From positions 592,470 through 622,036 of the forward strand of contig NZ_JAAAPJ010000005.1 in the NCBI RefSeq assembly GCF_009909145.1: a DNA stretch of 29,567 nucleotides. The letters are read 5' to 3'. Below are positions 1 to 14,720 of the stretch, in pieces; the stretch's first letter is position 1, and each line of letters starts with the position of its first letter. Below the pieces are notes generated by a model. The model had not been told where the DNA came from, searched no databases, and was given only the letters and a program-made list of their open reading frames with translations. The position numbers were made by a program, and so were the translations under genes. This DNA comes from Corallococcus silvisoli (lineage in GTDB: Bacteria; Myxococcota; Myxococcia; Myxococcales; Myxococcaceae).

Positions 1-952
1 CGATGATGCCCTCGCAATCCGACGAGACGCACGTGAGCTCGTCGAGCACCACGTACACGTAGCGACCCGCGGGGACCGGGTTGGCCTCGCTGCCCCCCTC
101 CGGGATGAAGCTGGGGTGCGTGACGACGAGCCGCGCCGGAATGTCCACCAGGTCCGTGTAGTCCGGCACCGCGAAGGGCGCGGGGCGTGGACGCTTGTAG
201 GGGATCTCCACCGACTGCTGGTCCGCGACGACGCGCACGAGCCGGCTGGTGCCGGAGACGTTGCGGATGGCGAGCACCAGGGAGTCCGTGGCATCCGCCC
301 GGGCGGGCAGCGTGATCATGGACAGCACCGTGTCCGCGGCCTTCAGGCAGAAGACGGGCAGCGCGGGAGGCAGCGCGGCGGCGTCGAAGCCCTCCGGACC
401 GGGCAGCTCCTGGCGCATCACGACGCCCCCCCCGAAGGGGCCACAGAGCTGCTCGGCGGCTTCCGGGCGCGTCTGGAGCGCGTAGTACAGGACGCTCGGC
501 GCGCCGTCCGCCACCGGGGCGTGCGCGGCGAAGGCGGTGATGAGCTGGCCGGTCGCCAGGCGCGTCACCTCGTTGAGGCGCGTCCGGTCGGCGGCCACCA
601 CGGAGATGCTCCGGCCACCGGAGTTGCGCGCGTAGATGTAGGGGCCGGACACGTCGGCGCCCTTGGCGTCGTAGCCCACGTCCCGGGTGAGCGAGTCGGG
701 CCGCGCGATGACCGGAATGGCGAGCGGCTCCAGCGGATTGGGCGCGGGGATGAACTCACGCGGCGTGCGACTCAAGTCCAGCACGCGCAGCTCGTCCCGG
801 TCCTGCGAGGTGACGAAGACGAGCTGGTTGGAGAGCACCACGTCGTATGTGCCGGACAGACCGGCGGCGCCCGCGGTGGAGGTGGTGTCGGAGCAGGCGA
901 GCGCGAAGCTCGCGCCACTCAGCAACAGGGCAGCAAGGAAGCCGCGCTTCAA
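1..952 (-). CDS. Lipoprotein, YVTN-like beta-propeller repeat protein; partial, the 3' end runs off the window start
   Basis: Open minus-strand frame from 952 down to position 1 with no stops. The N-terminus reads MKRGFLAALLLSGASFALAC, a lipoprotein signal with an L-A-C lipobox. The TTG start at 950-952 sits 8 nt after AGGAG. Repeats such as YIYARNSGGRSISVVAADRTRL resemble YVTN propeller blades in the upstream paralog. The ORF track misses it because it is truncated by the window edge. Confidence 0.5.
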   Translation of the reverse strand, partial: MKRGFLAALLLSGASFALACSDTTSTAGAAGLSGTYDVVLSNQLVFVTSQDRDELRVLDLSRTPREFIPAPNPLEPLAIPVIARPDSLTRDVGYDAKGADVSGPYIYARNSGGRSISVVAADRTRLNEVTRLATGQLITAFAAHAPVADGAPSVLYYALQTRPEAAEQLCGPFGGGVVMRQELPGPEGFDAAALPPALPVFCLKAADTVLSMITLPARADATDSLVLAIRNVSGTSRLVRVVADQQSVEIPYKRPRPAPFAVPDYTDLVDIPARLVVTHPSFIPEGGSEANPVPAGRYVYVVLDELTCVSSDCEGII

Positions 953-954
953 GG

Positions 955-2484
955 TCAGTTCTCCTGGCACACGCTGGTGCCCTGGTTCGGATCGCGCTGC
1001 TGCTGCGTGCCCAGCTTCGCCACCAGCCTCGCGTCCTGGGGACGCGCGAGGTCGGGGATGTCCACGATGGCCACCTGCCCGTCCCCGAAGTTGGTCACGA
1101 ACAGCCGCGCCGAGTTCACGCCCACCGGGTTGTCCACCGTCAGGCCGAAGGCCTGCGACGGGTTGCTGCCCTGGTTCTGCGCGTTGACCAGCGGCACCTG
1201 CGCGACGACCTGGCCAAGCCCCTCGTCATAGAAGGACACCGCGCTGTCGCCGGTGCTCGTCACCGCGACGATGTGGCTGTCGGGGTCGCTCGGTGACGCC
1301 GTCCGGTTGATGATCTGCATGTCGCTCACGCCGTTCGGCATGGGCACCGCGGAGACCACCCGGAAGACGGGCTGGGTGGCGATGGCGCCGGGCGGCGCGT
1401 CGTAGTCGAAGTCGAGGGTGAGGAGCGTGTCGGGTCCGCGCGCCAGCAGGTAGAGCCGCTCGCGCACGAGGTTCGGACGCACCGCGAGCTCCGCCGCCGT
1501 CACCGGCCGGGGCACCACGCGCGCCGCACGCGCCTCGCGGATGCGGTACACGGACTGCAGGTTGGGCTCCAGGATGCGTCCGGTGTCGAACTTGTCCACC
1601 AGCCGCAGCACGAAGTTCGCGCCCACGGTGCCGTTGACGCCGGCCACGAAGTTGCGGCCCGTCACGTAGAGGTAGCCCGCGCCCACCGTCACCGCATCCG
1701 AGCCGCCATACAGGAAGCCGGTGGGCGACAGCGGAATGAAGCCCAGCGTGTCGCGGGTGGGGTTGTCCAGCTTCACCGTGGCCAGGTAGCTCTCGAAGTT
1801 CTTGCTCGACTTGGCGGGCGAGTCCGCCGCCTCCGAGTGCGTCACGTACAGCGTGCCGCTCGCGTCATCCACCGTCACGCCAATGGGCGACGGCGCGCGA
1901 GGCAGGTCCGGCAGCCCCTCCGTGCGCAGCGACGCCGGGATGTCGTTGGTGAGGGACAGGGCGCCCGTGCGGCAGTCCTCGCCGCCCTGCACGCAGTTGA
2001 GCACCGGCTTGCCGCCCTCGGCCACGCCCACGTCCACCGCGTAGAGGTTGTTGCCCTCCGCGCGCGAGGGGACGAACAAGCGGGGCAGCCCGTTGAGCGG
2101 GTTGATCCACAGGCCCAGCTTCCCCGCGAAGCTGCGGATCTGGACCAGCGACTCGTCGCCCGTCGTCAGGTCCTCGAAGGCGAGCGGGGAGGCGGCGACA
2201 GGGGCGCCCAGCCGGGGCACCAGAACCGACTGTCCGTCCACCTGGGCGCTCAGCGAGTCCAGGTTCAGCGCGACCACCGACCCGGAGTCGTAGCAGTTGT
2301 CGAAATTGGCGTTCGCGACGAACAGGTATCCGTTGCTGTTCGTGGGCCCCCCAGCCGTGGGAGGGCGCCAGAACGCCACCCCGCTGGGGTACACGAAGCG
2401 GGTGGAGGGAGGCGGGTTCGGGTCGGATTCGATCGAACACGCCGCGAAGAACAACAGCGCGGGGGTCAGGAAATGGAGGCGCAT
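955..2484 (-). CDS. Lipoprotein with YVTN/NHL-like beta-propeller repeats (509 aa)
   Basis: ORF 955..2562 trimmed to the ATG at 2484, giving MRLHFLTPALLFFAAC (signal peptide plus lipobox). Repeated LYVTxxxxxxVxVxD-type blades occur (LYVTHSEAAD, YLYVTGRNF, RLFVTNFGDGQVAIVDIP). Confidence 0.7.
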   Translation of the reverse strand: MRLHFLTPALLFFAACSIESDPNPPPSTRFVYPSGVAFWRPPTAGGPTNSNGYLFVANANFDNCYDSGSVVALNLDSLSAQVDGQSVLVPRLGAPVAASPLAFEDLTTGDESLVQIRSFAGKLGLWINPLNGLPRLFVPSRAEGNNLYAVDVGVAEGGKPVLNCVQGGEDCRTGALSLTNDIPASLRTEGLPDLPRAPSPIGVTVDDASGTLYVTHSEAADSPAKSSKNFESYLATVKLDNPTRDTLGFIPLSPTGFLYGGSDAVTVGAGYLYVTGRNFVAGVNGTVGANFVLRLVDKFDTGRILEPNLQSVYRIREARAARVVPRPVTAAELAVRPNLVRERLYLLARGPDTLLTLDFDYDAPPGAIATQPVFRVVSAVPMPNGVSDMQIINRTASPSDPDSHIVAVTSTGDSAVSFYDEGLGQVVAQVPLVNAQNQGSNPSQAFGLTVDNPVGVNSARLFVTNFGDGQVAIVDIPDLARPQDARLVAKLGTQQQRDPNQGTSVCQEN

Positions 2485-5831: not shown

Positions 5832-8114
5832 TCAGTCCGAATAGGCCGGGAGGTCGGCCAGTCGAATCTGGAGCTTCGTCACCTCCCCTGGACGGATGGG
5901 AGCGGACAACAGCTTGCTCGTTCCGCCGGGGTCCTGAGGGTCCACGATGCGCAGGCGGTAGGTGCCGATGGGGAGCGGGAACTTCGTCAGCGGGGACGTG
6001 CCCAGCTGCGTCGCGCCGTCGAATACCGCGGCGTTCTTCGGCACCGTGTAGAGCGTCAGCCAGCCCAGGCCCGCCTTCGCCGCGCCCTTCGCGGTGGTCG
6101 TGTCGAGCACCTCCGGGGCCTCCGTCTGCGTGACCGTGGTGACAGGCTCCGGCACACGGGGTGGGGCCACGGTGGGCGCGGCCGGCGTGGGCTTCGGGTC
6201 GACCTTCGCGACCGTCGGCTTGTCGGCGGGGGCCACCCAGTTCGCGGGAGAGCTGCCCGGCTTCGCCTTGCGGGCGCCCTTGCCGGCGGCGCCCTTCTTC
6301 GCGTCGGCGGTCGGGGTCTCCGCCTCCGCGACGGGCTCGGACGGGGGGGCCGGAGGAGTCTCCTGCTGCGGCGGCTTCTCGGGCTCGGTCTTCGCGACGA
6401 AGCCCGGCGGAGGACCGGACCGCTTGGGGGGCCACTCCGCGGTCGCGCTGGGATCCACGGGCGCTGCCGGATCCAGCTCCGCCTTCACCCACTGCTTCGC
6501 GGAGTCGAACGCGGGCATGAACAGGCGGCGCACCGGCTCCAGCGTCGCCAGGTAGCCCACGCCGCCCAGGATGAGGAGCAGCACGAGGCGCATGCCCCAA
6601 TTGGAGCGCTGCGGTGGAGCCTCCGGTGCCGCGTCCGCGGCCTCCCCGGCCCCACGCGCGGGCCGGGTGCCCCCGCGCGCCGGCCGGGTGCGGAAGCGCT
6701 GCGTCTGGAGATCGCTGGGGGGATCCAGCAGCGCGTCGGCCTGGGGTGCGTTCCGGGCCTCGGCGGCCTCCGGGCGCGCCGAGGGACGTGCCCTGGCGGG
6801 CCGCGCGCTGTCCGCGGGAGGACGCACCACCCGGGGGATGGGAGCCGCTTCAGCGCCCGCGGGCCGCTGCGCACGCGGCGTCATCGGTGGCGTGTTGACG
6901 CGCGACGCCCCGTCGGCGGAAGGACGCGGGGTCGCGCGAGGGGCGGGCGTCGGGGACTCGGCCGCGGTGCGGCGCACGGGCGTGGGACGGAAGGACGCCG
7001 CGGCCTCCGAGGGCGGGGCGTCCGCGTGCGGCGACTTCACCTGCGCGGTGGTGGCGGCCGCCGCCTGATCCGTGCCCTCCTCCACCTGAAGCGCACCGGC
7101 GGCCTCGCTGACGCGGGCGTCCTCGGCGCGGCTGGCCAGTTCCAGGAGGGTGCGCGTCTTCTGACGCTTCTCCTCGAAGAGCTCGCCCATGACGGCGGTC
7201 ATCTGATCTTCGTCGAACAGCTCGGCGCCGAGCGTGGCCTCGATGGCGCGCGCCATCTCCCGACAGGTGCCGAAGCGCTGGGCCGCGTCGCGCGAGAGCG
7301 CCTTGAGCACCACCGCTTCAATCGCCTCCGGGAGCGTGGCGTTGAGCGAGCGCGGCGCGGGAATCTCCCCGTCCACGATCTGCATCATCACCGCGGCCTC
7401 GCCCGGAGCGTTGAACAGCCGCTGACCGGCGACGAGCTCATGGAACATCACGCCCGCGGAGAACTGGTCGCTGCGGCCATCCAGGCCCTGTCCCCGCACC
7501 TGCTCCGGGGACATGTACCCGCTGGTTCCCTTCACCGTGCCCACCTGCGTGCGGCCCAGCTTGCCGCGCGCCTTGGCGATGCCGAAGTCGATCACCTTCA
7601 CGACGCCGTCGTAGGTGATCATCACGTTCTTCGGGGACACGTCGCGGTGCACCACCGCCACGGGCCGCCCAGACGGATCCATGAAGTGGTGCGCGTAGTG
7701 CAGCCCCAGGCACGTGTCGCGCATCACGCGGGCGCTGAAGCCCAGCGGCAGCGCGTAGTTGCGCCGGGCCGCCATCTTCACCACCTGCTCCAGGTTCTGA
7801 CCGGGCAGGAACTCCATGGCGAGGTACAGCTCGCCGTCCTCCTCACCCAGGTCGAACACCTGTCCGATGTTCGCGTGCGAGAAGGCGGCGGTGATGCGCG
7901 CCTCGTCGAGGAACATCTTGACGAACTGGTCGTCCTTCTTGATGTCGGGGAGGATCTGCTTCACCGCGACGAACTTGCGGAAGCCGCCGGGACCGGAGGT
8001 GAACGCGAGGAACAACTCCGCCATCCCGCCCATCGAGAGTCGGGTGAGGATCTCGTATTTTCCGATGCGCCGCCCCCGGTCGGGATCTTCTCCGGCGCCT
8101 CCCTGCGTGCTCAT
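5832..8114 (-). CDS. Hanks-type Ser/Thr protein kinase: N-terminal kinase domain, long Pro/Ala/Arg-rich linker, one TM helix, C-terminal PEGA-like domain (760 aa)
   Basis: Kinase motifs are present: GKYEILTRLSMGGMAELFLAF (Gly loop), VAVKQI, HRDVSPKNVMI, DFGIAKA, SGYMSPE. The TM segment is MRLVLLLILGGVGYLATL. The C-terminus VFDGATQLGTSPLTKFPLPIGTYRLRIV fits the PEGA pattern. Start is the ATG at 8114 (MSTQGG...) rather than the track's upstream extension. Confidence 0.85.
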   Translation of the reverse strand: MSTQGGAGEDPDRGRRIGKYEILTRLSMGGMAELFLAFTSGPGGFRKFVAVKQILPDIKKDDQFVKMFLDEARITAAFSHANIGQVFDLGEEDGELYLAMEFLPGQNLEQVVKMAARRNYALPLGFSARVMRDTCLGLHYAHHFMDPSGRPVAVVHRDVSPKNVMITYDGVVKVIDFGIAKARGKLGRTQVGTVKGTSGYMSPEQVRGQGLDGRSDQFSAGVMFHELVAGQRLFNAPGEAAVMMQIVDGEIPAPRSLNATLPEAIEAVVLKALSRDAAQRFGTCREMARAIEATLGAELFDEDQMTAVMGELFEEKRQKTRTLLELASRAEDARVSEAAGALQVEEGTDQAAAATTAQVKSPHADAPPSEAAASFRPTPVRRTAAESPTPAPRATPRPSADGASRVNTPPMTPRAQRPAGAEAAPIPRVVRPPADSARPARARPSARPEAAEARNAPQADALLDPPSDLQTQRFRTRPARGGTRPARGAGEAADAAPEAPPQRSNWGMRLVLLLILGGVGYLATLEPVRRLFMPAFDSAKQWVKAELDPAAPVDPSATAEWPPKRSGPPPGFVAKTEPEKPPQQETPPAPPSEPVAEAETPTADAKKGAAGKGARKAKPGSSPANWVAPADKPTVAKVDPKPTPAAPTVAPPRVPEPVTTVTQTEAPEVLDTTTAKGAAKAGLGWLTLYTVPKNAAVFDGATQLGTSPLTKFPLPIGTYRLRIVDPQDPGGTSKLLSAPIRPGEVTKLQIRLADLPAYSD

Positions 8115-8219
8115 GGCCCGGGGGATGTTACCTGTCACGCCCCCCCAGGTCGATGCTCGTCTTCTCTTGGACGGACAGGCCCTCCCCCCCAAACGGCTCA
8201 GGAGCCCGGGGAAAGCCGC

Positions 8220-9008
8220 TTAGGCGCCGAACCGTTGCCGCCGCACGTCAAGCATCCAGGCCTCGAGCGCCGCCACCGCCGACGCGGGGGGCTCCAGCGG
8301 CAGCGTGGAGGACGCGTCCGCCTCGTCGAGCACCGCGAAGGCGCGCGTCACCCCCTGTTGCCACTGCTCGCTGAGCGCGTCGGACAGCTCGATGTGCTCC
8401 CCCCGCTGCTTGCGCTCCACCAGCGCGCGGGCTTCGGCGAAGCCATACGGCTCCAGCAGGTGGGTGACGTCCGTCTCCACTTCGCCCGTGCGCAGCAGAT
8501 GCGTCCCGGTGAGCGTGGTGCGCAGCACGTACAGCAGCTTCTTCGCGGAGCGAAAGCCGCTCTTCTCCCATTCGCGGAGCTGCCCCTGCGCGAAGCCGCG
8601 GTAGTGCCGGTGGACACGCCGCGACAGGACGGCCCGGACCCGAGGCCGCAGCGCCTCCAGCTCCGGCAGCGCCCGCACGGTGACGGCGCCGAGCACCCGC
8701 TCGATGTAGTTGCCGTTGCCCTGCAGGATGCCGAGCAGCACCGGCTGCAGCTCGTTGGACGAGTAGTCCACCTCCACGCCCTCCCGCACCTCCAGGCGCT
8801 CCGCCGGCACGTGCCGGGGCTGGAGGCCCAGGAGCGCGGCGGTGGGTGCGATGTGGATGGACTTGAGGTCCAGATCGCTGTCGTGCGAGGGGAAGCCGTA
8901 CGCATGCGCGCCAGACAGCGTGATGACCAGGTGCTCGCGCTGGAGGGACTCCTCGTCCAGCACCCTGTCCGCCATGCGTGCCTGATGCTCCGTCACCATG
9001 CCCTTCAT
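8220..9008 (-). CDS. Pol-beta superfamily nucleotidyltransferase (262 aa), downstream member of an NTase pair
   Basis: HLVITLSGAHAYGFPSHDSDLDLKSIHI gives the G[SA]-x10-DxDx NTase signature, with a third acidic cluster at VEVDYSS. The ATG at 9008 (MKGM) is preceded by GGAGGGAGG and overlaps the upstream gene's stop as ATGA. The Arg/Gly-rich 355-aa N-terminal extension in the ORF track is rejected. Confidence 0.75.
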   Translation of the reverse strand: MKGMVTEHQARMADRVLDEESLQREHLVITLSGAHAYGFPSHDSDLDLKSIHIAPTAALLGLQPRHVPAERLEVREGVEVDYSSNELQPVLLGILQGNGNYIERVLGAVTVRALPELEALRPRVRAVLSRRVHRHYRGFAQGQLREWEKSGFRSAKKLLYVLRTTLTGTHLLRTGEVETDVTHLLEPYGFAEARALVERKQRGEHIELSDALSEQWQQGVTRAFAVLDEADASSTLPLEPPASAVAALEAWMLDVRRQRFGA

Positions 9009-10297
9009 TCCGCTCCTCCCTCCAGCGCCGGGGCCTCCGGCGCGTCGCGGCCCAAGGGCCCAGGGGTCTTCAACACCCAACGCCGAGCCACCTCGTCCCC
9101 CACCTTGCGCAGCAGCCGGTCCGCGCGGGCGTAGTCCGGATGTTCCGGCAGCCGGCTCTCCCGGTGCGCGGCCTCCAGCTCGGGCGCCATCGCCTCCGCG
9201 TCGCGCAGCACGTCCTCCAGGGGCACCTGTCCCCCCTTGATGTCGAGCAGCCGCGCCTTCAACGGCCCCGTCGCCTCGAAGGTGGGGACACCGTCCCGCA
9301 GCCAACCCGTGGCCAGGGCCACCAGCCGCAGCAGGTTGTAGGCGTTCTTCGGCCGCAGCTCCCGCGCGGAGGGAGGGCGCTGGCCGCCACCTCGCGCGTA
9401 CACCGTGAGCGCCGCGAAGTCGTTGGCGGCGAGCAGTCCCTGATCCCACAGCGAGCGATAGAGCTGCTTGACGTATGTCTTCGCCGCGAGCACCGCGTCC
9501 TCGGGCGAGGGTGCGGCGCGTGGAGACACTGCGGCCAGGCGCCGAGCCACTTCGTCCAGGTCCGGCGTGGGATCTTCGCACAGCCACGCGAGGAGCAGGT
9601 CCCGGTGCTCGGCCAGCCGCTGGCTTCGCGTGAGCTTGTCGAGCTGGCTCATGGCATAGCGCCCGAAGCTGCCGAAGATGGCCTTGGAGACGAACGCCTC
9701 GCGCGCCTCCAGCACCCATTCGCCCAGGGTGTCCACCGCCGTCGCGCCCGGGACGAAGAGCGTCTCGAGCGTGTTTGGATCCGCGCGCAGGGCCTGCTCC
9801 ACCGCCTTGCGCACCTCCCAGTACGTGGTGCTGCCGTCCGCGCTCACCAGGTCCCGCGCAGGCTCCCCGAGCCCCAGCGTCCACGACAAGGGCAGCGCGA
9901 ACACGCCGCGCACATCCACGTCGGAGCGCTCGTCCGCGAGCCCCCAGGCGTGGCTGCCCACCCGCGTCTCCAGCACCACGCACGGCCGCAGCGCGCCCCA
10001 GGCCGCCTCTCGCCGCTGGGCGAACTGCACCTGGCCCATGCGCCGGGGAACCAGCTCGTCGCGCGCGAACCACACCTCGCCCACGCCGACGATCTGCACG
10101 TCGAACCCACCGTCATGCGCGCGCACCACGCGGCCCACCACGCCCTGCGGAATGCGGCGCCCCGCCGAGGCCACTCGCTCCACACGCGTCGTCACCTCGG
10201 TGCCGTGCGGAAGGGGCACGGACAGCCGGTCGATCTGCTCCAGGCCCCGGACCCTCGCGGCGGTGGAGGAAGCGGCATCAGCTCGCGGGTCACTCAT
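9005..10297 (-). CDS. Pol-beta superfamily nucleotidyltransferase with an extra ~110-aa N-terminal domain and a C-terminal helical region (430 aa), upstream member of the NTase pair
   Basis: VVLETRVGSHAWGLADERSDVDVRGVFALP gives the GS-x10-DVDV signature, with a third acidic site near DLVSADGS. Start chosen at the ATG at 10297 (MSDPRAD), preceded by AGGAGG at 5-nt spacing. The track's GTG at 10327 has no SD. Confidence 0.75.
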   Translation of the reverse strand: MSDPRADAASSTAARVRGLEQIDRLSVPLPHGTEVTTRVERVASAGRRIPQGVVGRVVRAHDGGFDVQIVGVGEVWFARDELVPRRMGQVQFAQRREAAWGALRPCVVLETRVGSHAWGLADERSDVDVRGVFALPLSWTLGLGEPARDLVSADGSTTYWEVRKAVEQALRADPNTLETLFVPGATAVDTLGEWVLEAREAFVSKAIFGSFGRYAMSQLDKLTRSQRLAEHRDLLLAWLCEDPTPDLDEVARRLAAVSPRAAPSPEDAVLAAKTYVKQLYRSLWDQGLLAANDFAALTVYARGGGQRPPSARELRPKNAYNLLRLVALATGWLRDGVPTFEATGPLKARLLDIKGGQVPLEDVLRDAEAMAPELEAAHRESRLPEHPDYARADRLLRKVGDEVARRWVLKTPGPLGRDAPEAPALEGGAE

Positions 10298-10375
10298 CGG
10301 TCCCTCCTGCTTGGGTGGGTGGGCCACGGTGGACGCAGTGAACCACGGGAGCCTGACCCGGCACGGCGCTTCCCG

Positions 10376-13364: not shown

Positions 13365-13829
13365 TCAGAACGCGGCCAGGAAGCGGCCCAGGGTGGTGGC
13401 GACGTTGCGCTTCTCTTCGGCGCGGGCCTTCACGGCGGGCACGAGCGTGGGCTCCCGGAAGAACACGGGCAGCGTCTTGAGCCACTCGTCCTGCTGCGCG
13501 GGGGCCGCGGCGCGCCAGTTCGCGTTGTCCATCATGAAGCCCAGCGACTCCACGAACGCGAGCGCGTCGTCCTCGTCCTCGCGCAGCTCATCCGCGGACT
13601 GGATGCGCCGGCCGGACACGTACACCGCGCAGTCGCCCGCCTCCACGAGGTACAGGTACACGAAGACGCCCGCGCCCTGCCCGCCCCGAAGCCCCACCAC
13701 GAAGGCCTGCGCGGGCCCCGCCTGCTTGCCGGGGATGGCCACGTGCGGAGTGTTGAGGGCCAGGTGCAGCGCGAGCACCTGGTCGCGGCTCGCGGGAAGG
13801 CCCCGGTAGCGCTCGTCGATGGTGAACAC
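13365..13829 (-). CDS. Hypothetical protein (154 aa)
   Basis: Clean ORF with codon bias like its neighbours. GTG start at 13829 is preceded by GGGAG at 7 nt. No motif recognised. Confidence 0.5.
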   Translation of the reverse strand: MFTIDERYRGLPASRDQVLALHLALNTPHVAIPGKQAGPAQAFVVGLRGGQGAGVFVYLYLVEAGDCAVYVSGRRIQSADELREDEDDALAFVESLGFMMDNANWRAAAPAQQDEWLKTLPVFFREPTLVPAVKARAEEKRNVATTLGRFLAAF

Positions 13830-13862
13830 CGTCGTCTCCCTTCCTGAGCGCCCGCCCCACCT

Positions 13863-14549
13863 TCAGCGGGTGGTGAGGGTGAACTCCTCGGTCGCGTCCT
13901 GCGCGTCCGCAGCCGTCTTCTGGAAGCGGATGAGGGGCGTGTCAATCATCACGTTGCCGCCACCCTCGTTGCCCTCGCCGATGATCACCTTGAAGACGTT
14001 CCCGGGAGAGCTGCTGCGGCGGCTCCCCGCGACGACCTTGCGGGCCATCAGCGTCACCGCGTTCGGACCGGGACGCAACTGACTGGTGATGTCCATCACC
14101 ACCTGGTCCTCGTTATTGCGCAAACGGCGCAGCCAGCGCGAGTTCACATACACGTCGATGTCGAAGTCCGTCATCCCCGGCGTCGTCTGCTCCGTCACCA
14201 GCCAGTAGCGCTGCGAGATTCGGCCCGGCACGGAAGCCGGAGGAGTGGGCGCCGCGGCCGGCGCGGGGGCCTGGGCAACGCCCGCGTCCGGAGGCGTGGC
14301 GGCCGGCGGCGGAGGCGTGGCGGGAGGCGTCGAGGGCGTGGGGGTCACGGTCGTCACGCGAGCGGCGTATCCCGGCGCGTCGATGTGGACATTGCCCTCC
14401 GCGTCGATGCGGACGGTGGCCTTCTCGAAGCGCTGGTTCTTCACGCCGTCGATGTTCACACCGTTCAAGAACACCGAGCCAGCCAGGGCCAGCACGGGAA
14501 CGAGGGAAGCCACGAGGGTGAGCGCGATGCGGTCGGACGAGCGGGGCAT
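13863..14549 (-). CDS. Secreted two-domain protein with a Pro/Thr/Ala-rich linker (228 aa)
   Basis: The ATG at 14549 is preceded by GGAGG. The signal peptide is MPRSSDRIALTLVASLVPVLALAGSVF, the linker is TPTPSTPPATPPPPAATPP...APTPPAS, and a C-terminal globular domain follows. Confidence 0.6.
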   Translation of the reverse strand: MPRSSDRIALTLVASLVPVLALAGSVFLNGVNIDGVKNQRFEKATVRIDAEGNVHIDAPGYAARVTTVTPTPSTPPATPPPPAATPPDAGVAQAPAPAAAPTPPASVPGRISQRYWLVTEQTTPGMTDFDIDVYVNSRWLRRLRNNEDQVVMDITSQLRPGPNAVTLMARKVVAGSRRSSSPGNVFKVIIGEGNEGGGNVMIDTPLIRFQKTAADAQDATEEFTLTTR

Positions 14550-14720
14550 GGGGGCATTCCTCCAGGGAATCCTCAACAGTCCCGGGGGCTTGCAACGACT
14601 TAGCGCACCCGGGGGAGCGGGACAAGGCGGGTGTGGCCCACCATGGAGCGCACCGCCGCCCCGAACATTCACCCCGGGGCCCGTGTTCCTCACCCCCGTC
14701 CAGCGGACTCGGACGAGGGC

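What the first reader, a model, noticed from the sequence alone, without database searches (positions are those of the whole stretch)
8220..10297. Two divergent, translationally coupled Pol-beta-type nucleotidyltransferases of unknown function
Both proteins carry the minimal NTase signature: GS-x10-DVDV in the 430-aa protein and GA-x10-DLDL in the 262-aa protein, each with a third acidic cluster ~30 aa later. Pairwise similarity is otherwise low, so this is an old duplication or a heteromeric pair rather than a recent tandem copy. The genes overlap by ATGA, which implies stoichiometric co-expression. Neither resembles CCA-adding enzymes, GlnE/GlnD, or obviously a CD-NTase, and the upstream member carries an unassigned ~110-aa N-terminal domain. 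Paired small NTases act in several conflict and signalling systems (toxin-antitoxin NTases, second-messenger synthases), so this is the most likely place in the window for an undescribed activity. Assigning it to a named family is not possible from sequence alone.
Basis: partly seen in the sequence, partly recalled or inferred. Interest (0 to 1): 0.6.

Follow-up and report, generated by a model that had tools for sequence, protein, structure and literature searches.

The report
Conserved two-subunit RlaP nucleotidyltransferase pair
The two overlapping genes encode two different members of the RlaP family of RNA-end nucleotide-adding enzymes. The same ordered pair sits inside RNA-repair operons in other bacteria and is fused into one protein in some, so it is an uncharacterised variant of a known RNA-repair enzyme, not a new kind of system.

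Summary
Two minus-strand genes, A (9005-10297, 430 aa) and B (8220-9008, 262 aa), overlap by ATGA. They carry GS-x10-DVDV and GA-x10-DLDL.

Both match Pfam PF10127 RlaP (RNA-ligase-associated Pol-beta NTase). A 2025 preprint reports that two Pseudomonas RlaPs add 1-2 NMPs to RNA 3'-OH ends.

A and B represent two old subfamilies. The order A then B, mostly with a 4-nt overlap, is kept across Myxococcota. In Deinococcus and many metagenome contigs the pair sits inside Hen1-A-B-Pnkp operons or next to Rnl/HD-Pnk, RtcB or CCA-adding genes. At least 18 sequence clusters encode A-B fusions that keep both catalytic sets.

A also has an N-terminal SH3/KOW-like barrel, which is not in Pfam, and a helical insertion of about 90 aa.

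Best reading: a heteromeric RlaP enzyme that restores or extends RNA 3' ends. In Myxococcota it is vertically inherited and unlinked from any ligase. The activity, the complex and the reason for two active sites are inferred, not shown. I rate it a new variant of a known kind, of moderate interest.

The parts
9005..10297 (-). Gene A: 'long A-type' RlaP nucleotidyltransferase, 430 aa
   Evidence: ORF and sequence. Pfam PF10127 RlaP, E = 5.2e-22, aa 107-226. It is 93-97% identical to Corallococcus proteins and 50-88% identical across Myxococcota. AlphaFold model with pLDDT 84.9.
10303..10308 (-). AGGAGG ribosome-binding site, 5 nt upstream of the ATG of A
   Evidence: Read directly from the sequence. 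It supports the 430-aa start over the GTG at 10327. Homologues are 428-431 aa.
10043..10216 (-). N-terminal SH3-like (KOW/Tudor-like) beta-barrel of A, aa ~28-85, with conserved LPxGTxV ... PxGxxGxV motifs
9755..10033 (-). NTase core of A (aa 89-181)
9914..9958 (-). Catalytic motif of A: G114-S115-x10-D126-V-D128
   Evidence: Sequence. Invariant in 44 Myxococcota homologues, in 18 fusion proteins and in 15 short A-types.
9815..9838 (-). Candidate third metal ligands of A: D154 and W160-E161
   Evidence: D154 is invariant within Myxococcota. The W-E pair is invariant in fusions and in short A-types. These residues align with D81 and E86 of B.
9074..9730 (-). Helical C-terminal domain of A (aa 190-408), HEPN-like bundle. 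It includes an insertion of about 90 aa (aa ~225-312, nt 9362-9625) that short A-types lack.
9326..9349 (-). Conserved helix motif of A: K317-N-A-Y-N321-L-L-R324 (family-wide pattern K-x3-[H/Y/N]-x2-R)
   Evidence: Invariant. The same motif is found in all RlaP types compared.
9005..9008 (-). ATGA stop/start overlap between A and B
   Evidence: Sequence. The same 4-nt overlap occurs in 50 of 68 related split loci and in the Deinococcus operons.
9015..9019 (-). GGAGG ribosome-binding site for B, inside the 3' end of A
   Evidence: Read directly from the sequence.
8220..9008 (-). Gene B: 'B-type' RlaP nucleotidyltransferase, 262 aa
8868..8912 (-). Catalytic motif of B: G33-A34-x10-D45-L-D47, within the B-type signature SGAHxYGFPSxDSDxDL
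   Evidence: Sequence. Invariant in Myxococcota, in fusions and across phyla. The second position is A, S or G.
8751..8774 (-). Candidate third metal ligands of B: E79, D81 and E86
   Evidence: E79, D81 and E86 are invariant in Myxococcota. D81 is invariant across phyla, and position 86 is always D or E.
8520..8543 (-). Conserved helix motif of B: K156-K-L-L-Y160-V-L-R163, followed by the B-type-specific TLTGxH (H170)

Best explanation
A and B are the two non-identical subunits of a heteromeric RlaP-family (PF10127) nucleotidyltransferase.

Each subunit has a Pol-beta NTase core plus a helical, HEPN-like domain, and each has a complete set of catalytic residues. A adds an N-terminal SH3/KOW-like barrel that probably binds the RNA substrate or a partner. 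The overlapping stop and start codons give coupled, roughly equimolar synthesis.

By homology with the Pseudomonas RlaPs described in a preprint, and from the company the same A/B pair keeps elsewhere, the complex most likely adds one or a few nucleotides, without a template, to the 3'-OH of broken or trimmed RNA such as tRNA or rRNA. This would restore lost nucleotides before re-ligation or re-use.

In Myxococcota the pair has a helical insertion in A, is inherited vertically as a self-contained two-gene unit, and is not linked to any ligase gene. It therefore probably works with unlinked ligases, or acts as a general RNA 3'-end maintenance enzyme.

What is shown: family membership, conserved residues, fold, pairing, fusions and contexts.
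What is inferred: the physical complex, the RNA substrate, the number of nucleotides added, and the division of labour between the two active sites.
For: Family:
- Both proteins pass the Pfam RlaP cut-off and match the phage NTase families phrog_388 and phrog_14344.
- The helix motif K-x3-[H/Y/N]-x2-R is shared with single RlaPs.

Reported activity of the family: addition of 1-2 NMPs to RNA 3'-OH; DNA and protein are not substrates; Mn2+ is preferred (preprint 10.64898/2025.12.29.696909).

Two orthologous subfamilies:
- A-types score 82-243 bits with A but at most 39 bits with B-types.
- B-types score 103-159 bits with B but at most 46 bits with A-types.

Pairing:
- Of the 84 loci analysed (80 from the genome scan plus 4 metagenome loci found earlier), 71 have A directly followed by B. 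Of these, 50 have a 4-nt overlap and 3 are fused.
- 'B-only' loci turn out to have a diverged A upstream.
- The few viral-collection hits also have an A next to the B where sequence upstream is available.

Fusions: at least 18 distinct clusters (50% identity) of 640-725 aa proteins have A at the N terminus and B at the C terminus, with both G[SA]...DxD sets invariant.

RNA-repair context of the same pair:
- Hen1-A-B-Pnkp with 4-nt overlaps on Deinococcus gobiensis and D. ficus megaplasmids.
- 26 of 80 metagenome loci have Hen1, Pnkp, Rnl, HD-Pnk, RtcB or a CCA-adding enzyme next to the pair.
- A single RlaP lies next to a CCA-adding enzyme and RtcB on a C. botulinum plasmid.

Vertical inheritance: identity to A falls with taxonomic distance. 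Corallococcus 93-97%, Myxococcus 83-88%, Archangiaceae 75-80% among named genomes (unnamed Archangiaceae MAGs go down to 63%), Sorangium 61-64%, Kofleriaceae about 52%, Bradymonadia about 30%. GC content is not anomalous.

Folds: NTase plus HEPN-like bundle in both proteins; SH3/KOW-like barrel in A.
Against: - None of the 84 long-pair loci analysed, nor the window itself, has Pnkp, Rnl, HD-Pnk, RtcB or a CCA-adding enzyme within about 8 kb. One MAG has only a Hen1 fragment. The defining 'ligase-associated' context is therefore missing exactly where this pair lives.
- Even for the short pair, only 10 of 26 loci of at least 10 kb show a repair neighbour.
- The only biochemistry is a preprint on single Pseudomonas RlaPs from a different cluster. 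No A-type, B-type or pair has been assayed.
- The closest solved folds for B are adenylyltransferases of small molecules and proteins (ANT, DrrA, GlnE), not RNA enzymes.
- Seven Myxococcota loci have A with no B in the following 8 kb, and a phage-like contig carries a short A alone. A is therefore not strictly dependent on B.
- No complex was modelled.
Confidence: 0.55

Rival explanations
1. Two independent RlaP enzymes that happen to be co-transcribed. Each acts alone, as a monomer or homodimer, on its own RNA substrate or nucleotide. There is no A/B complex.
For: A occurs without an adjacent B in 7 Myxococcota loci and in a phage-like contig. The Pseudomonas RlaPs characterised in the preprint are single genes. 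In a few metagenome loci other genes are wedged between A and B.
Against: B-type was never found without an A-type directly upstream wherever upstream sequence was available. The order and the 4-nt overlap are conserved from Deinococcus to Myxococcota. There are many independent A-B fusion proteins.
Confidence: 0.15
2. A protein- or small-molecule-nucleotidylylating system, possibly GlnE-like. The two homologous NTase modules would either add and remove an NMP on a target, or modify a metabolite or antibiotic.
Against: These matches are at fold level only (9-15% identity) and are shared by all NTase-plus-helical-domain enzymes. Sequence places both proteins in RlaP, not GlnE or ANT families. 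The flanking kinases are not conserved outside Corallococcus. Informative contexts elsewhere are RNA-repair genes. The RlaPs in the preprint did not label E. coli proteins.
Confidence: 0.12
3. B is a catalytically dead scaffold or regulatory partner (GA instead of GS). Only A is an enzyme.
For: The canonical Ser of the hG[GS] motif is Ala in most B-types. B-type has its own divergent signature, YGFPS and TLTGxH.
Against: The DSDxD motif, D81, the acidic position 86, K156, Y160 and R163 are invariant across phyla and in the fusions. Such conservation is unexpected for a dead site. The second position of hG[GS] tolerates small residues: S or G occurs in some B-types.
Confidence: 0.08
4. One reading: a conflict or signalling NTase pair, either a toxin-antitoxin NTase or a second-messenger synthase of a defence system.
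Against: There are no meaningful PADLOC hits. No effector, antitoxin or receptor gene is conserved next to the pair. The pair is inherited vertically across the phylum in a housekeeping region. The similarity to HalB is weak and limited to the generic NTase core.
Confidence: 0.05

Closest known systems
RlaP (PF10127), as characterised for Pseudomonas fluorescens and P. aeruginosa RlaP in the rtcB-rlaP-rtcA operon (preprint 10.64898/2025.12.29.696909). The family was named by Burroughs & Aravind 2016, a paper I could not read here.
   Same: Same Pfam family for both A and B. Same two-domain build, with an NTase core and a helical domain forming a cleft. Three conserved carboxylates. The K-x3-[H/Y/N]-x2-R helix motif is shared with single RlaPs.
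   Different: The characterised enzymes are single genes next to RtcB. Here there are two diverged paralogues (28% identity) in a fixed order, an extra SH3/KOW-like N-domain and a ~90-aa insertion in A, and no ligase gene nearby. Nothing in this pair has been assayed.
The Hen1-RlaP(A)-RlaP(B)-Pnkp operon of Deinococcus gobiensis and D. ficus megaplasmids and of many metagenome contigs. This is the Pnkp/Hen1 bacterial RNA-repair system with two inserted NTase genes.
   Same: Orthologous A-type (including the N-terminal barrel) and B-type (including SGAHxYGFPSxDSDxDL). Same order and the same 4-nt overlaps.
   Different: The Deinococcus-type A is about 300 aa and lacks the insertion. That pair is embedded between the healing, sealing and methylating enzymes. 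The Myxococcota pair stands alone in a chromosomal housekeeping region.
Split CC-adding and A-adding tRNA nucleotidyltransferases of some bacteria (from general knowledge)
   Same: Two related Pol-beta NTases that would act in succession on one RNA 3' end. This is a possible model for why two different active sites are kept.
   Different: They belong to a different family (PolyA_pol, PF01743). Those enzymes are not known as an obligate fused or overlapping pair. The analogy was not tested here.
Kanamycin, lincosamide and streptomycin nucleotidyltransferases (ANT(4'), LinB, ANT(3'')(9)), and GlnE and DrrA adenylyltransferases
   Same: Closest solved folds: an NTase core followed by a HEPN-like helical substrate-binding domain. 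GlnE likewise has two tandem modules.
   Different: Only 9-15% identity and no sequence-level family match. Their substrates are antibiotics or proteins, and their genomic contexts are unrelated.

Membership tests
RlaP (Pfam PF10127) | Score above the curated Pfam gathering threshold | tested here: met
   A scores 79.2 bits and B scores 94 bits against a cut-off of 23. B covers profile positions 23-247 of 249. A covers only 20-144, but its C-terminal part aligns with short A-type RlaPs and carries the family helix motif.
RlaP (Pfam PF10127) | Pol-beta NTase signature hG[GS]-x9-13-[DE]h[DE]h plus a third carboxylate | tested here: met
   A has G114, S115, D126 and D128, plus D154 and E161. B has G33, A34, D45 and D47, plus E79, D81 and E86. 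These are invariant in family alignments. Which downstream carboxylate is the metal ligand could not be decided.
RlaP (Pfam PF10127) | C-terminal helical domain packing against the NTase core to form the substrate cleft (PfRlaP crystal structure as described in the preprint) | tested here: inconclusive
RlaP (Pfam PF10127) | Gene neighbourhood with an RNA ligase or end-healing enzymes (the origin of the family name) | tested here: not met
   No ligase, Pnkp, Hen1, HD-Pnk or CCA-adding gene occurs in the window or within about 8 kb in the 84 related long-pair loci. The only exception is a Hen1 fragment in L039. The feature is met for the orthologous short pair. This is a contextual feature of part of the family, not a requirement of the Pfam definition.
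RlaP (Pfam PF10127) | Template-independent addition of 1-2 NMPs to RNA 3'-OH | not testable with these tools
   Known only from the preprint on two Pseudomonas enzymes.
CD-NTase / CBASS or other defence NTases (PADLOC models) | Match to a defence-system NTase model and an adjacent effector gene | tested here: not met
   PADLOC gives no hit for A and only a chance-level Cas11f hit for B (E = 0.061). No conserved neighbour exists beyond the pair itself.
MNT/HEPN or AbiEii toxin-antitoxin NTases | Pfam NTP_transf_2 or AbiEii match with a cognate HEPN or AbiEi partner gene | tested here: not met
   Only RlaP is hit in Pfam at E <= 1. The partner of each protein is another RlaP. The HEPN-like fold is the enzyme's own C-terminal domain.
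CCA-adding enzyme / poly(A) polymerase (PF01743) | PolyA_pol head-domain match | tested here: not met
   No match. A true CCA-adding enzyme found next to RlaP genes elsewhere is clearly distinct.
GlnE / GlnD | Sequence match to GlnE or GlnD NTase families | tested here: not met

The most novel reading that the evidence does not exclude
In Myxococcota the ancestral RNA-repair accessory pair has been domesticated into a phylum-wide, ligase-independent, obligate heterodimeric (sometimes fused) RNA 3'-end-modifying enzyme. Its two different active sites would carry out two distinct, ordered chemical steps: for example, adding two different nucleotides, or adding and proofreading or removing. The SH3/KOW-like barrel and the lineage-specific helical insertion would target it to a specific cellular RNA or to the ribosome. 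That would be a housekeeping or developmental RNA-tailing activity with no described counterpart.
Probability: 0.2. Interest if true: 0.6.

Novelty: new variant of a known kind. Interest (0 to 1): 0.38.

Why it matters
RlaP is a large NTase family (more than 10,000 sequences according to the preprint). Its first biochemistry appeared only in late 2025, and only for single enzymes.

This analysis shows a distinct, widespread form of the family. It is an ordered A/B pair with two intact active sites and an extra SH3/KOW-like domain. The pair is fused in some lineages, embedded in Pnkp/Hen1 and other RNA-repair operons in others, and stand-alone and conserved throughout Myxococcota.

This gives RNA-repair researchers a concrete target. 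The questions are whether nucleotide restoration before ligation needs a two-subunit enzyme, and what each site does.

It also corrects database names. Several homologues of A are labelled as UDP-phosphate GlcNAc-1-phosphate transferases.

For the genome scan itself, the finding is not a new class of system.

Tried and rejected
1. Sequence searches of the PDB with A, B and profiles of short A-types and B-types found only chance hits. No RlaP structure is in the copy searched, so the PfRlaP comparison could not be made.

3. NCBIfam gave no match. PADLOC gave nothing meaningful. Pfam run separately on the N-terminal domain and on the C-terminal half of A gave no match.

4. An hhalign comparison of the two Myxococcota alignments gave only a weak core alignment because the alignments are shallow.

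5. I looked for a conserved third gene around the Myxococcota pair and found none. Ser/Thr kinases recur nearby, but with different positions and orientations, and they are abundant in these genomes. I rejected them as partners.

6. The promoter and terminator scan of the locus was uninformative. No tRNA or Rfam element lies near the pair.

7. A Pnkp-like hit upstream of the pair in L069 is probably a generic calcineurin-like metallophosphatase, judged by eye from its sequence motifs; no family search was run on it. I did not treat it as repair context.

8. I recalled that the D. radiodurans DR_B0094-0098 region might hold RlaP genes. The review I read does not support this, so I dropped the idea.

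9. The Burroughs & Aravind 2016 paper that named RlaP is not in the library. I could not check whether it already described the tandem pair.

10. A complex prediction was not possible.
Full report
**Observation.** The window is a high-GC (about 70%) chromosomal segment. Its proteins are 93-97% identical to Corallococcus proteins. All coding-like frames lie on the minus strand. Their order is secE, rplKAJL, rpoB, rpoC, an SLT transglycosylase, a TPR protein, an HTH_25 protein, recO, a PfkB kinase, gene A, gene B, a Ser/Thr kinase, glyQ and glyS.

Gene A runs 10297->9005 (430 aa). Gene B runs 9008->8220 (262 aa). They overlap in ATGA. Each is preceded by a Shine-Dalgarno-like purine run (AGGAGG for A, GGAGG for B). 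A and B share 28% identity over 127 aa (E = 3e-5).

**Family assignment.** Both proteins hit one Pfam family, PF10127 RlaP ('RNA repair pathway DNA polymerase beta family'). A scores 79 bits and B scores 94 bits, against a cut-off of 23. B matches the profile nearly end to end. A matches only with its NTase half. Both also match the phage NTase families phrog_388 and phrog_14344. NCBIfam and PADLOC give nothing meaningful.

A December 2025 preprint (10.64898/2025.12.29.696909) reports that two Pseudomonas RlaPs, encoded between rtcB and rtcA, add one or two NMPs (or dNMPs) to the 3'-OH of RNA. They do not act on DNA or protein, and they prefer Mn2+. They partly restore aminoacylation of a tRNA that had lost an anticodon-loop nucleotide before ligation. 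Their crystal structure is described as an NTase domain plus a helical domain forming a cleft.

**Structure.** AlphaFold models built on family alignments are confident: A has pLDDT 84.9 and B has pLDDT 92. Both have an NTase core followed by a helical bundle.

The 'unassigned N-terminal domain' of A has three parts: a disordered tail (aa 1-22), a five-stranded SH3-like barrel (aa ~28-85), and the first NTase helix (aa 89-106). The barrel resembles KOW, Tudor and SH3 domains and OapB. It has no Pfam family. Its motifs LPxGTxV and PxGxxGxV are strongly conserved.

Compared with shorter relatives, A also carries a helical insertion of about 90 aa (aa ~225-312).

**Two old subfamilies that travel together.** A search of 1.8 billion cluster representatives with A found 2,991 relatives. 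Among the top hits were many proteins of 640-725 aa with two matched stretches. Reading and aligning 18 of them shows A-type at the N terminus and B-type at the C terminus. Both catalytic sets are invariant, at a mean column identity of 46% across the alignment. These are real fusions, not frameshift artefacts.

A bit-score matrix separates two groups:
- A-type group: window A, the N-halves of fusions, Deinococcus A, and a phage-like 303-aa protein.
- B-type group: window B, the C-halves of fusions, and Deinococcus B.

Single RlaPs from Clostridium and Bacillus plasmids lie nearer the A-type.

The genome-collection scan found at least 585 relatives. The 80 best are nearly all Myxococcota: Myxococcaceae, Archangiaceae, Sorangium, Chondromyces, Minicystis, Labilithrix, Nannocystaceae, Kofleriaceae and Bradymonadia. 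There are also single MAGs of Vulcanimicrobiota, Planctomycetota and Verrucomicrobiota.

I analysed 84 loci: these 80 plus 4 metagenome loci found earlier. In 71 of them A is directly followed by B. Of those 71, 50 have an ATGA or GTGA overlap, 3 are fused, and the rest have other short overlaps or gaps. Apparent 'B-only' loci have a diverged A-type upstream. Seven loci have A with no B in the next 8 kb. Identity to window A declines with taxonomic distance, which fits vertical inheritance. Apart from the pair itself, no neighbour is conserved. Nearby Ser/Thr kinases vary in position and orientation.

**Functional context elsewhere.** A tblastn search of plasmids found Deinococcus megaplasmids. 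In D. gobiensis and D. ficus the annotated gene order is Hen1, NTase (304-318 aa), NTase (259-264 aa), an extra ORF in D. ficus only, and Pnkp. All these genes overlap by 4 nt. Reciprocal BLAST shows that the first NTase is an A-type, including the N-terminal barrel (E = 3e-23 to A). The second is a B-type (E = 2e-30 to B over 241 aa).

A metagenome scan seeded with B-types found at least 595 relatives. Among the best 80:
- 26 have recognisable RNA-repair neighbours.
- 21 have Pnkp and 15 have Hen1, usually in the order Hen1-A-B-Pnkp.
- 5 have an RNA ligase (PF09414) together with an HD-plus-P-loop kinase.
- 4 have RtcB.
- At least 1 has a CCA-adding enzyme, confirmed by Pfam in L141; the CCA query also matched the HD-plus-kinase genes in four other loci.

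Among the 26 loci of at least 10 kb, 10 have such neighbours and 16 do not. A single RlaP on a C. botulinum plasmid overlaps a CCA-adding enzyme gene and lies near RtcB.

None of the 84 long-pair loci, nor the window, has any of these genes within about 8 kb. The only exception is a truncated Hen1_L fragment in one Archangiaceae MAG. M. xanthus is known to encode several RtcB paralogues (cited in PMC10630183), so unlinked ligases exist in the phylum.

**Interpretation.** Three things are shown:
- Both proteins are RlaP-family NTases with complete catalytic sets.
- They represent two ancient subfamilies kept in a fixed order, translationally coupled and repeatedly fused.
- The same pair is a recurrent component of RNA-repair operons outside Myxococcota.

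From this I infer a heteromeric enzyme that adds nucleotides to RNA 3' ends, with the N-terminal barrel of A as an RNA- or partner-binding module. In Myxococcota it has become an autonomous, vertically inherited unit.

Several questions remain open. Why are two active sites kept? Which carboxylate is the third metal ligand? A-types keep W-E invariant, whereas B-types keep D81 invariant. What does the insertion in A do? Which ligase, if any, cooperates with the pair?

The rivals are listed with their tests: independent enzymes, a GlnE- or ANT-like NMPylation system, a pseudo-enzyme B, and a defence or signalling NTase. None has more than fold-level or anecdotal support.

**Novelty and score.** The family is known and has recently been characterised. 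The paired and fused A/B form, with its extra domain and its stand-alone conservation in Myxococcota, is uncharacterised. As far as the held literature shows, it is also undescribed. The paper that named the family could not be read. I rate it a new variant of a known kind, with moderate interest (0.38).

Noticed in passing
homologues of window 9005-10297 (P0002, P0003, P0007, P0035, P0070 and others): Several NCBI and UniRef records name A homologues 'UDP-phosphate N-acetylglucosaminyl 1-phosphate transferase' or 'undecaprenyl-phosphate ...'. This conflicts with their RlaP domain and looks like a propagated mis-annotation.
   Followed up: no
L039 3234-5563 (Archangiaceae MAG): A truncated Hen1_L domain lies upstream of A (Pfam E = 2.9e-62; only the first 148 of 242 profile positions; 57% identical to Deinococcus Hen1 aa 1-147). 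It is followed by a 584-aa HEAT-repeat protein whose stop overlaps the start of A by 4 nt. This may be a relic of an ancestral Hen1-A-B-Pnkp operon, or a MAG chimera.
   Followed up: partly
L121 6084-6992; L159 6409-6972; L135 5220-7001; L130 2284-6987; L127 5833-6987: In some metagenome loci a gene is wedged between A and B. The inserted genes are an R2K-clade ATP-grasp (Pfam R2K_3, E = 5.8e-40), a 188-aa protein that looks macro-like by eye but has no Pfam hit, a 594-aa P-loop ATPase, a 1568-aa STAND/HEAT-like protein, and an unknown 385-aa protein.
   Followed up: partly
L087 7685-8398 (D. ficus pDFI2); relatives in L091 and L149: An extra 237-aa ORF with no Pfam hit sits between B and Pnkp, with 4-nt overlaps on both sides. 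It recurs in two metagenome contigs.
   Followed up: no
window 8499-8522 (B aa 163-170); alignments A2 and A5: B-types have a strictly conserved R-x6-H (R163...H170, within LRTxLTGxHL) on the second long helix of their HEPN-like domain. A-types and single RlaPs lack this His. It superficially resembles the HEPN Rx4-6H motif, but it sits on a different helix than I would expect for that motif (from memory). Its significance is unknown.
   Followed up: partly
L042, L046, L052, L060, L063, L071 and L074: Some Myxococcota (Hyalangium, Enhygromyxa, and some Archangiaceae and Polyangiaceae MAGs) have a long A-type with no B in the following 8 kb. In Hyalangium and L042 a convergent gene follows A instead; by eye it looks like a purine nucleoside phosphorylase, but no family search was run. 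Whether B is elsewhere or lost is unknown.
   Followed up: partly
L085 11765-13139 (D. gobiensis plasmid P2): An AbiEi/AbiEii toxin-antitoxin pair and an IS3 element lie directly downstream of the Hen1-A-B-Pnkp operon.
   Followed up: no
window 2-1225, 955-2841, 13365-13862 and 13863-14720 (all minus strand): Four frames with coding-type GC3 have no Pfam match at E <= 0.001.
   Followed up: no
window 5832-8192 (minus strand): The Ser/Thr kinase directly downstream of B (27 nt away) has a long Pro/Ala-rich low-complexity linker and a C-terminal region without a Pfam hit. A kinase also lies just downstream of the pair in Sorangium, but in convergent orientation.
   Followed up: partly
L173 and L174 (IMG/VR contigs of 135-203 kb): A long-A/B pair occurs on contigs classified as viral: the A-type scores 533 bits with the Myxococcota A profile. 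B-types are otherwise rare in the viral collection, with 4 loci.
   Followed up: partly
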